From the IMG/VR virus record IMGVR_UViG_2671180755_000006: 6,045 nucleotides of DNA; one strand, given 5' to 3'. Below, piece by piece: positions 3,726 through 4,960 of this stretch. This DNA comes from a virus (lineage: Duplodnaviria; Heunggongvirae; Uroviricota; Caudoviricetes). The notes beneath the pieces were generated by a model that saw nothing but the letters and a program-made list of their open reading frames with translations, was not told the origin of the DNA and did not search any database. Positions within the stretch are counted from its first letter, which is position 1. Each line of letters opens with the position of its first letter. The position numbers were made by a program, and so were the translations under genes.

Positions 3726-4775
3726 GTGCGGGTATTACTTCGACCTGTTCTGGTACCGGAACTCGGGCTGGTGATCGTTAAGCCGGGCCGTGAATCCATG
3801 CCGGTATTCCACAATACCCGGGTACTGGTGGAGCCGGAACCGAAAAGCATGCGTAATCTGCCGTCCGGGGTCGTTCCTGCCGTTCGCCAGCCGCTGGCGG
3901 AGGATAAATCATTACTGCCATTTTTCAGCGACGAACGAGTGATTCGTGCTGCTGGTGGCGCTGGCGCACTGTCTGACTGGTTACTGCGCCATGTTAAATC
4001 CTGCCAGTGGCCACACGGCGATTATCACCACAGTGAAACCGTCATTCACCGTTATGGTACCGGCGCAATGGTGTTGTGCTGGCACTGCGACAACCAGTTG
4101 CGTGACCAGACCTCCGAATCACTTGAGCAACTTGCTCACCAAAACCTGTCAGCATGGATGATTGACGTCATTCGTCACGCAATGAATGGCACACAGGAGC
4201 GTGAATTATCGCTGGCTGAATTATCCTGGTGGGCGGCCTGCAATCAGGTGGTGGATGCACTACCTGAGGCAGTAGCGCGTCGTTCGCTGGGATTACCAGC
4301 GGAAAAAATCCGCTCCGTATACCGTGAGAGTGACATCGTACCGGGAGAACAGACAGCCATCAGCATACTGAAGCAGCGCACAAAAAATATTGCGCTGCCA
4401 CTTCACGTCCACCAGCAACAAAATCCACCACAGAAAAAAACGGTTGTCAGTATCGCCGTTGATCCGGAGTCTCCTGAATCGTTCATGAGGCGGCCTAAAC
4501 GTTGCCGCTGGGTTAATGAGAAATACACGCGCTGGGTAAAGACACAGCCGTGTGCGTGTTGTGGTAAGCCTGCTGACGATCCGCATCACCTGATTGGTCA
4601 TGGTCAGGGGGGAATGGGGACAAAGGCCCACGATATTTTCACGCTACCGTTGTGCCGGGAGCACCACAACGAACTTCATGCAGACCCGCTGGAGTTTGAG
4701 AAAAAGTACGGCTCTCAGATTGAGTTAATTTTTCGTTTTCTTGATCACGCCTTTGCGACTGGCGTGCTCGGGTAA
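3726..4775 (+). CDS. ydfU: DUF968/YdfU-like prophage protein, 349 aa, with C-terminal HNH-like Cys/His motif
   Basis: GTG 3726 preceded by GGAGG (3717-3721); TAA at 4773-4775. C-terminal CACCGKPADDPHHLIGHGQGG...LCREHHNELH motif. The 349-aa length and position upstream of Q match YdfU as I recall it; the symbol is by synteny and length, not by alignment. Confidence 0.75.
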   Translation: MRVLLRPVLVPELGLVIVKPGRESMPVFHNTRVLVEPEPKSMRNLPSGVVPAVRQPLAEDKSLLPFFSDERVIRAAGGAGALSDWLLRHVKSCQWPHGDYHHSETVIHRYGTGAMVLCWHCDNQLRDQTSESLEQLAHQNLSAWMIDVIRHAMNGTQERELSLAELSWWAACNQVVDALPEAVARRSLGLPAEKIRSVYRESDIVPGEQTAISILKQRTKNIALPLHVHQQQNPPQKKTVVSIAVDPESPESFMRRPKRCRWVNEKYTRWVKTQPCACCGKPADDPHHLIGHGQGGMGTKAHDIFTLPLCREHHNELHADPLEFEKKYGSQIELIFRFLDHAFATGVLG

Positions 4776-4787
4776 AAGAGGTGACTG

Positions 4788-4960
4788 ATGCTCATAGATT
4801 TGGTTTTACCTTACCCGCCGACGGTGAACACCTACTNNNNNNNNNNNNNNNNNNNNNNNNNNNNNNNNNNGAGCAGTTTGATGAAATCAATATTGTGCGC
4901 GGTCAGCTCGTTCCTGGTGAGCGGCTGGGGATAAAAATCACAGAACTGGAGTGCGCATGA
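4788..4960 (+). CDS. rusA: RusA-family Holliday junction resolvase, interrupted by an N run; only both ends visible
   Basis: SD AAGAGG (4775-4780) then ATG 4788. N-terminus MLIDLVLPYPPTVNTY resembles RusA MNTYSITLPWPPSNNRYY; C-terminus ...GERLGIKITELECA resembles RusA ...GGRLELTITEMGNEA (both from memory). Stop TGA at 4958-4960 overlaps the Q-like ATG. Confidence 0.75.
4837..4870. other. run of 34 N inside rusA
   Basis: Seen directly. The visible N- and C-terminal rusA frames are in different phases across it (4788 vs 4871), and the visible total is far shorter than a ~120-aa RusA. Confidence 0.95.

What the first reader, a model, noticed from the sequence alone, without database searches (positions are those of the whole stretch)
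3726..4960. DUF968 protein with HNH-like motif immediately followed by RusA
The 349-aa protein ends with a Cys/His cluster (CACCG...HH...GHG...C.EHH..LH) resembling an HNH/zinc-finger nuclease motif. The next gene is the RusA resolvase, starting 12 nt after its stop. Two adjacent nucleic-acid-processing proteins in the late-regulatory region suggest roles in recombination or replication-intermediate processing, possibly in host takeover. DUF968 function is, to my knowledge, not established.
Basis: partly seen in the sequence, partly recalled or inferred. Interest (0 to 1): 0.4.

Follow-up and report, generated by a model that had tools for sequence, protein, structure and literature searches.

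The report
YdfU-type prophage HNH nuclease gene
This is an ordinary, already catalogued prophage gene (a YdfU/DUF968 protein) whose tail end is a zinc-stabilised HNH DNA-cutting domain; it sits among the recombination genes just before the phage late-gene switch Q, and its exact job has never been tested in the lab.

Summary
Window 3726-4775 encodes a 349-aa protein, 100% identical to RefSeq WP_001265075.1 of an E. coli O157:H7 lambdoid prophage and 85% identical to K-12 Qin YdfU. rusA starts 12 nt after its stop and overlaps Q. In the window, rusA is partly N-masked and shortened.

This assignment, the RusA/Q neighbourhood and a recombination role were already published computationally (Jablonska 2017; Curtis 2014).

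The closest characterised relative is phage PhiNM1 Gp16, a RecA-stimulated nickase with the same motif spacing (hhalign 95%).

RusA adjacency is not conserved: 3 of 80 loci have it immediately downstream. A Q-type gene immediately downstream is.

Best reading: an active HNH nickase or endonuclease acting on recombination or replication intermediates, possibly RecA-linked.

One new detail: an unannotated N-terminal domain with a second conserved zinc site.

Verdict: already known, low interest.

The parts
3726..4775 (+). ydfU-like gene: 349-aa DUF968 protein (stop included)
   Evidence: 100% identical to WP_001265075.1 and 85% identical to K-12 YdfU. PF06147 covers aa 160-346.
3726..4397 (+). 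N-terminal region, aa 1-224. It has no Pfam family. aa 1-135 match phrog_11007. Well-predicted alpha/beta plus helical domain.
   Evidence: pLDDT is mostly 83-96. No family is found for aa 1-150 in any of 25 homologs.
4002..4094 (+). Second putative zinc site, aa 93-123: C93, H/C101, C118, C/H121, followed by D122. It lies on a predicted beta-hairpin plus helix (E105-110, E113-118, H119-125).
   Evidence: C93 108/108, position 101 H89/C17, C118 108/108, position 121 C80/H28, D122 104/108. One search gives the secondary structure.
4398..4487 (+). Gln/Pro-rich flexible linker (aa 225-239, pLDDT <50), then the conserved basic 'RPK' segment (P257, K258).
   Evidence: Between alleles the HNH domain is exchanged at about this point.
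4551..4679 (+). HNH (beta-beta-alpha-metal) core, aa 276-318. Zinc ligands C276, C279, C310, H313. Catalytic and metal residues H287, H288, D303, H314, H318.
4788..4960 (+). rusA (Holliday junction resolvase). 4837-4870 is an N mask standing for 221 real bases.
4957..5646 (+). Antitermination protein Q (PF06323). Its start overlaps the rusA stop.
3446..3724 (+). 92-aa hypothetical protein (phrog_1212). Its stop TAA at 3722-3724 lies one base before the ydfU start. Not related to K-12 Rem.
   Evidence: Homologs lie upstream of ydfU in 15 of 80 loci.
3347..3364 (+). Terminator-like hairpin with a T-run after hokD, upstream of the 92-aa/ydfU/rusA/Q gene string.

Best explanation
The gene encodes a YdfU-family phage protein with two modules joined by a flexible linker. 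The C-terminal ~95 residues form a zinc-stabilised HNH (beta-beta-alpha-metal) nuclease. C276, C279, C310 and H313 hold a structural zinc. H288 is the general base. H287, H314 and H318, with D303, hold the catalytic divalent metal. The first ~225 residues form a domain with no assigned family that carries a second Cys/His zinc site; it probably supplies DNA or partner-protein binding. The gene is transcribed with the nin-region (delayed-early) genes and is kept silent in the lysogen. The most likely action is nicking or cutting of DNA at recombination or replication intermediates (D-loops, RecA-coated or branched DNA). That would feed the phage and host recombination machinery whose junctions RusA then resolves, and it may damage host replication. 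It would be the positional counterpart of lambda Rap/NinG and DLP12 YbcO, and would work like P1 Ref and PhiNM1 Gp16, whose cleavage is RecA-dependent or RecA-stimulated. Shown here: fold, motif, conservation and genomic context. Inferred: catalytic activity, substrate, and any RecA link.
For: Family: PF06147 E=7e-77; PHROG 96 'HNH endonuclease' E=7e-176.
Profile comparisons: PhiNM1 Gp16 95% probability, E 2e-8, over YdfU 152-332, with identical C-x2-C / H / C-R-E-H-H / H spacing. Gp16 itself passes the DUF968 Pfam cut-off. YbcO 86%. Ref 77%.
Conservation in 108 distinct homologs: H287, H288, H314 and H318 106/108; D303 108/108; His/Cys exchange at ligand position 313. dN/dS of the HNH part is 0.056.
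Context: nin region with rusA within 3 kb in 48 of 80 loci, always just upstream of a Q-type gene, and no NinG or separate YbcO in those loci. YbcO sits directly before rusA in DLP12 and in 79 of 80 related contigs.
Literature: Gp16 is a nickase stimulated by RecA; it is toxic only when RecA is present, and its deletion severely impairs phage DNA replication (PMC12817073). Ref is a RecA-dependent HNH nuclease. A strong Rho-dependent terminator lies upstream of K-12 ydfU (PMC9160355).
Against: No biochemical or genetic test of YdfU or any DUF968 protein of this architecture turned up in the full-text searches. YdfU lacks the NinB/Orf-like N-terminal domain of Gp16 and the disordered basic N-terminus of Ref, and both termini of Gp16 were needed for RecA binding, so RecA dependence may not transfer. 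The HNHc_6 Pfam hit is below the cut-off (22.8 vs 26.6 bits), there is no RecA_dep_nuc hit, and similarity to Rap/NinG is not significant. Linkage to rusA is loose. HNH domains serve many unrelated roles, so fold alone does not give the substrate. In Gp16 the general-base mutant H157A kept toxicity, so the chemistry in that family is not fully settled.
Confidence: 0.55

Rival explanations
1. A selfish, homing-type HNH endonuclease. It would cut phage genomes lacking it near the Q junction and spread by repair, which would create the mosaic boundary seen next to it.
For: Its immediate downstream neighbour is a Q gene of at least four different types (lambda-Q-like, 82/QuuD-like, PF06323, DUF1133) across 80 loci, so a recombination junction lies right after it. 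The HNH domain itself is exchanged between alleles: dS is 1.77 in the HNH part against 0.4-0.5 elsewhere, and E. coli has two C-terminal allele classes. A large non-catalytic N-terminal region could be a target-recognition domain.
Against: The position is conserved across many enterobacterial genera and the whole gene is under purifying selection (dN/dS 0.107). Its nearest relatives are the YbcO, Ref and HNHc_6 recombination-associated groups, not the known homing families. No DNA-binding modules typical of homing enzymes were detected. Mosaic junctions at gene boundaries are general in lambdoid phages (established knowledge).
Confidence: 0.1
2. A non-catalytic zinc-finger DNA-binding or regulatory protein in which the HNH scaffold is kept only as a fold.
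For: Some family members are annotated as phage transcriptional regulators (PMC5714182). Two of 108 homologs have lost the His residues. In Gp16 the zinc-ligand mutants, not the general-base mutant, abolished toxicity. The gene always lies next to the Q regulator.
Against: All five catalytic or metal positions are kept in 106-108 of 108 homologs, even in a subgroup that has lost the zinc ligands C279/C310. That is the opposite of what a purely structural zinc finger predicts. The neighbouring Q gene belongs to unrelated families, which argues against a specific partnership.
Confidence: 0.12
3. A terminase-associated HNH endonuclease needed for cos cutting and packaging, like HK97 gp74.
For: It is an HNH protein in a siphovirus-type prophage, and the PHROG annotation is generic.
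Against: The gene lies in the nin region before Q, upstream of the lysis genes (holin and lysozyme follow downstream), and no terminase is annotated in the 14.5-kb stretch fetched. Packaging HNH genes are normally adjacent to the terminase genes (PMC12817073 introduction).
Confidence: 0.03
4. A dedicated two-gene DUF968-RusA nuclease module whose products act as obligate partners. This is the strong form of the first reader's idea.
For: There are 12 nt between the genes here. The same arrangement occurs in E. albertii and in some E. coli/Shigella loci (L005, L010, L011). The related YbcO sits directly before rusA.
Against: Only 3 of 80 loci have rusA immediately downstream. 32 of 80 have no rusA within 3 kb. 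In 39 an antirepressor-like gene separates them and the order is reversed. K-12 Qin lacks rusA next to ydfU.
Confidence: 0.08

Closest known systems
E. coli K-12 Qin prophage YdfU (b1560), Pfam DUF968 (PF06147); His-Me finger group 7 of Jablonska et al. 2017
   Same: Ortholog: same length, 85% identity, same position before Q with hokD upstream. The full DUF968 model is matched.
   Different: Here rusA is inserted between ydfU and Q, Q is of the PF06323 type, and the upstream small gene is not rem.
Staphylococcus phage PhiNM1 Gp16 (Pfam HNHc_6, PF16784), a RecA-stimulated nickase (NAR 2026, PMC12817073)
   Same: Identical HNH motif and spacing (CxxC, H nine residues later, C-R-E-H-H, H four residues later). 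hhalign gives 95% probability. Gp16 passes the DUF968 cut-off. It is a phage early-region gene, with rusA in the same genome region.
   Different: Gp16 has a NinB/Orf-like N-terminal domain. YdfU instead has an unrelated ~225-aa region with its own zinc site. YdfU scores below the HNHc_6 cut-off. RecA dependence is untested for YdfU.
Bacteriophage P1 Ref (PDB 3PLW; Pfam RecA_dep_nuc), a RecA-dependent HNH endonuclease
   Different: No Pfam cross-hit. Ref has a disordered basic N-terminus instead of a folded domain, and sits in a different genomic context (next to cre/c8 in P1).
DLP12/phage 82 YbcO (PDB 3G27; Pfam YbcO/DUF1364)
   Different: YbcO is a 96-aa stand-alone domain with a C-Q-x6-C first zinc knuckle and a single His in place of the HH pair. 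There is no N-terminal extension.
Lambda Rap/NinG (PF05766), a branch-specific endonuclease
   Same: An HNH-type nuclease in the nin region upstream of Q. It was not found together with YdfU in the 80 loci surveyed.
   Different: No significant sequence similarity, and a different domain order.

Membership tests
Pfam DUF968 (PF06147) / YdfU | Score above the curated gathering cut-off over the whole model | tested here: met
   257.6 bits against 27.8, model positions 1-171 of 171, aa 160-346. 85% identical to K-12 YdfU.
His-Me finger (HNH) superfamily | Beta-beta-alpha-metal fold | tested here: met
His-Me finger (HNH) superfamily | General-base His at the end of strand 1, and metal-binding His/Asn in the helix | tested here: met
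   H288 (with H287), H314 and H318 are each kept in 106 of 108 homologs; D303 in 108 of 108.
His-Me finger (HNH) superfamily | Divalent-metal-dependent nuclease activity | not testable with these tools
   Needs purified protein.
Zinc-finger HNH subclass (CCCH/CCCC) | Four Cys/His ligands flanking the core | tested here: met
   C276 108/108, C279 102/108, C310 103/108, position 313 His 67 / Cys 35. Metal content was not measured.
HNHc_6 (PF16784; PhiNM1 Gp16-like NinB-HNH fusions) | Pfam gathering cut-off | tested here: not met
   22.8 bits against 26.6, covering only the HNH core.
HNHc_6 (PF16784; PhiNM1 Gp16-like NinB-HNH fusions) | NinB/Orf-like N-terminal domain | tested here: not met
RecA-dependent nucleases (P1 Ref, PF16786; Gp16 by function) | Cleavage that requires or is stimulated by RecA | not testable with these tools
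   Only structural and profile similarity is available.
RecA-dependent nucleases (P1 Ref, PF16786) | Pfam RecA_dep_nuc match | tested here: not met
   No hit at E <= 0.01. Ref itself scores 172.7 bits.
NinG/Rap (PF05766) | Sequence membership | tested here: not met
   No Pfam hit. hhalign probability 8%.
YbcO/DUF1364 (PF07102) | Sequence membership | tested here: not met
RusA (PF05866), neighbouring gene | Pfam cut-off on the unmasked sequence | tested here: met
   60.6 bits against 22.8 for the 119-aa product in the source record. The DLDN and DD acidic motifs are visible.
Homing HNH endonucleases | Sporadic presence at varying sites, with known DNA-binding modules | tested here: not met
   Fixed position before Q in 80 loci. 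No such modules were detected.

The most novel reading that the evidence does not exclude
YdfU would be a two-zinc protein whose unannotated N-terminal region contains a degenerate, catalytically dead copy of a YbcO-like His-Me finger: C93-Q-x6-[HC]101, a beta-hairpin, then C118-W-x-[CH]121-D122. That module would steer an active C-terminal Ref/Gp16-like nickase onto RecA-bound or branched DNA. This would give lambdoid phages a RecA-coupled nuclease that stands in for Rap, and would assign a function to a y-ome gene; the 2.4-kb region around it gave a match in 4558 of 5426 complete E. coli genomes.
Probability: 0.2. Interest if true: 0.5.

Novelty: already known. Interest (0 to 1): 0.2.

Why it matters
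YdfU is one of the uncharacterised 'y' genes of E. coli K-12, and copies sit in most lambdoid prophages of pathogenic E. coli. If it is a RecA-linked nickase like P1 Ref or PhiNM1 Gp16, it could affect prophage induction, phage replication, recombination between the many co-resident prophages of O157 strains, and phage-antibiotic synergy. As found here, though, it is a close ortholog of a catalogued family.

Tried and rejected
- AF2 with a shallow alignment (79-100% identity) gave an unusable model, pLDDT 49. Only the diverse alignment worked.
- Foldseek against PDB gave nothing significant for the two-domain model. BFVD matched only the C-terminal domain. The afdb50 library was unavailable.
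- Sequence search of PDB with the protein, with the family profile, and with the N-domain profile gave only a marginal YbcO hit.
- NCBIfam and PADLOC gave no hits, so there is no support for a defence-system role.
- N-domain tested as a duplicated HNH: hhalign against the protein's own C-domain, YbcO and Gp16 puts the Cys/His elements in register each time, but none is significant (E 0.067, 0.48, 0.23). No Pfam family hits the N-domain in 25 homologs. This is kept only as a speculative reading.
- Apparent fusions of the YdfU N-terminus to tail-fibre, capsid or portal domains in the representative library were judged to be assembly chimeras.
- The upstream 92-aa protein is not Rem.
- A YbcO scan of viral contigs returned only near-identical copies. 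It was of no use for a deeper profile.
- The search for related loci failed with the most diverse alignment and was repeated with a narrower one.

Full report

The DUF968 ORF starts at GTG 3726, four bases after a GGAGG and one base after the stop of the 92-aa gene. It encodes 349 aa identical to WP_001265075.1 and 85% identical to YdfU of the K-12 Qin prophage.

The window carries two N masks that also shorten the sequence. 3238-3346 stands for 197 real bases and covers most of hokD. 4837-4870 stands for 221 real bases of rusA. That is why rusA looks like a 173-nt, frame-broken gene in the window. In the source record it is an intact 119-aa RusA (PF05866).

**What the protein is.**
- Family: Pfam places aa 160-346 in DUF968 (E 7e-77), with a sub-threshold HNHc_6 hit on the Cys/His core. 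PHROGs places the whole protein in phrog_96, 'HNH endonuclease'. NCBIfam and PADLOC have nothing.
- Model quality: an AF2 model built on a shallow alignment failed. With 29 homologs of 26-82% identity it reached pLDDT 86.7.
- Architecture: a folded region covering aa 1-224, a disordered Gln/Pro-rich linker (225-239), and a C-terminal domain with the strand-strand-helix core at 285-288, 306-309 and 311-319.
- Conservation in 108 distinct full-length homologs from genomes and metagenomes: H287, H288, H314 and H318 are kept in 106; D303 in all; C276 in all; C279 in 102; C310 in 103. Position 313 alternates between His (67) and Cys (35), as a zinc ligand would.
- A subgroup has lost C279 and C310 but keeps every catalytic His. 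This argues for a working nuclease rather than a purely structural zinc finger.
- Selection: dN/dS against K-12 ydfU is 0.107 overall and 0.056 in the HNH part.

**Relatives with known function.**
- Profile comparison links YdfU to YbcO (86%), P1 Ref (77%) and, most strongly, Gp16 of Staphylococcus phage PhiNM1 (95%, E 2e-8, YdfU 152-332 against Gp16 41-204).
- Gp16 is a full HNHc_6 member that also passes the DUF968 cut-off. It has the same pattern as YdfU: CxxC, a His nine residues later, C-R-E-H-H, then His four residues on.
- A 2026 paper shows Gp16 nicks and degrades plasmid DNA. RecA stimulates it, it binds RecA, and it is toxic only in recA+ cells. [quoted passage not shown]
- Ref is the classic RecA-dependent HNH nuclease.
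- Similarity to lambda Rap/NinG is not significant, and there is none to lambda Orf or YbcN.

**Context.** I fetched 80 homologous loci from enterobacterial genomes (47-93% identity) and searched their ORFs with reference proteins.
- A Q antiterminator of one of three mutually unrecognisable types follows immediately in 59 loci, and after rusA in 3.
- Of the other 18 loci, 17 have a ~190-215-aa ORF in the same place. These fall into two sequence groups. One scanned representative is DUF1133 with a Phage_antitermQ hit; the other has no Pfam family.
- rusA lies within 3 kb in 48 loci. It is immediately downstream in only 3, immediately upstream and overlapping in 6, and 0.7-1.8 kb upstream in 39. 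In the one such locus inspected (L045), the intervening gene is Rha/ANT antirepressor-like.
- K-12 Qin has ydfU followed directly by Q.
- No NinG and no separate YbcO was detected in these loci, with single-sequence phmmer sensitivity.
- In DLP12, and in 79 of 80 near-identical viral contigs, YbcO sits directly before rusA.

So the conserved feature is 'last nin gene before Q', in the slot that lambda fills with ninG (two genes before Q) and DLP12 fills with ybcO. The tight DUF968-rusA pair is one local arrangement of a looser association.

**Expression.** A terminator-like hairpin follows hokD. In K-12, a very strong Rho-dependent terminator is reported upstream of ydfU (PMC9160355). Both fit silencing in the lysogen.

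**What is already known.** Jablonska et al. 2017 put DUF968 and DUF1364 (YbcO, 3G27) in His-Me finger group 7. They name YdfU, list RusA, Q and antirepressor as neighbours, and propose a recombination/repair role similar to NinG and RecA-dependent nucleases (PMC5714182). Curtis et al. 2014 described the zinc-finger HNH motif of DUF968 proteins and fusions to recombinases (PMC4118853). Full-text searches for DUF968 and YdfU turned up no experiment on YdfU.

**Mechanism proposed.** Confidence is about 0.55 for the whole chain, about 0.9 for 'HNH fold', and about 0.75 for 'active nuclease'. After prophage induction or infection, read-through of the nin region produces YdfU. Its C-terminal HNH domain nicks or cuts DNA using one catalytic metal held by H287, H314 and H318 (with D303), with H288 as the general base. 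The N-terminal region provides substrate or partner binding. The likely substrates are recombination or replication intermediates, possibly RecA-bound DNA, by analogy with Ref and Gp16. Holliday junctions formed downstream are resolved by RusA. The fold, residues and context are shown here. The activity, substrate and RecA link are inferred.

**Rival readings.**
- A homing-type selfish nuclease that creates the mosaic junction next to Q (0.1).
- A non-catalytic zinc-finger regulator (0.12).
- An obligate YdfU-RusA module (0.08).
- A packaging HNH (0.03).

**An extra observation.** The first ~150 residues match no Pfam family in any of 25 homologs and no solved structure by sequence. They do contain a second conserved metal-site signature: C93 (108/108), position 101 His 89 / Cys 17, C118 (108/108), position 121 Cys 80 / His 28, then D122 (104/108). 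These sit on a predicted beta-hairpin plus helix (105-110, 113-118, 119-125).

Alignments of this segment to the protein's own HNH domain, to YbcO (which shares a C-Q-x6-C knuckle) and to Gp16 all fall in the same register, but none is statistically significant. The would-be general base is not conserved (H102 in 56/108, H108 in 12/108). A degenerate duplicated His-Me finger is possible but unproven.

**Verdict.** This is a real gene and a real HNH domain. Interest is low. The most useful output is a concrete test: ask whether YdfU behaves like Gp16 and Ref.

Noticed in passing
window 3238-3346 and 4837-4870: Two runs of N do not preserve length. 109 N stand for 197 real bases (most of hokD and its 3' flank), and 34 N stand for 221 real bases of rusA. 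Coordinates downstream are therefore compressed relative to the source genome, and rusA appears frame-broken in the window.
   Followed up: yes
window 3446-3724: A 92-aa hypothetical protein (its C-terminal 66 aa match phrog_1212; no Pfam, NCBIfam or PADLOC hit). Its stop codon lies one base before the ydfU start. Homologs lie upstream of ydfU in 15 of 80 loci. It is not related to K-12 Rem, which holds that position in Qin.
   Followed up: partly
window 3726-4175 (aa 1-150 of the DUF968 protein): An N-terminal domain with no assigned family and a conserved four-ligand Cys/His site (C93, H/C101, C118, C/H121) followed by an almost invariant Asp. It may be a degenerate HNH-like module.
   Followed up: partly
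window 4398-4775 versus L002 (K-12 ydfU): Synonymous divergence from K-12 ydfU is 1.77 in the HNH part but 0.4-0.5 in the rest of the gene. E. coli alleles fall into two C-terminal classes (C-R-E-H-H versus C-R-K-C-H, with different C-terminal tails). This suggests the HNH domain is swapped by recombination at the linker.
   Followed up: partly
window 3211-3237 (hokD start) and 3347-3364: A hokD type I toxin gene, mostly masked, followed by a terminator-like GC hairpin with a T-run, just upstream of the 92-aa/ydfU/rusA/Q gene string.
   Followed up: no
window 5857-5932 and 5940-6016: Two tRNA genes directly after Q: one with anticodon CAT (ARAGORN calls it Met, RefSeq calls it Ile) and a tRNA-Arg (TCG). 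A third tRNA-Arg follows in the source genome beyond the window end.
   Followed up: no
P0145, P0171, P0187, P0188, P0126 (representative library): The first 150-320 residues of YdfU appear fused to tail-fibre, tip-attachment J, capsid or portal domains. These are most likely assembly chimeras across repeated prophage DNA rather than real architectures.
   Followed up: partly
L014, L019, L034, L044, L050, L058, L078 (about 4000-4700): A ~200-aa protein with no Pfam family (one representative, L014, was scanned) occupies the Q position directly after ydfU in several Klebsiella, Kluyvera and Kosakonia loci. It may be an undescribed Q-type antiterminator. Other loci have DUF1133, which weakly matches Phage_antitermQ.
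   Followed up: partly
window 2700-6045: Nine sigma-70-like promoter matches, against 2.7 +/- 1.7 expected from shuffles. None was examined further.
   Followed up: no
literature (PMC11950266): A pan-genome association study lists a ydfU allele (odds ratio 4.3) together with stx2B and a Q gene among genes associated with haemolytic uraemic syndrome. This probably reflects linkage within Stx2 prophages, not a causal role.
   Followed up: no
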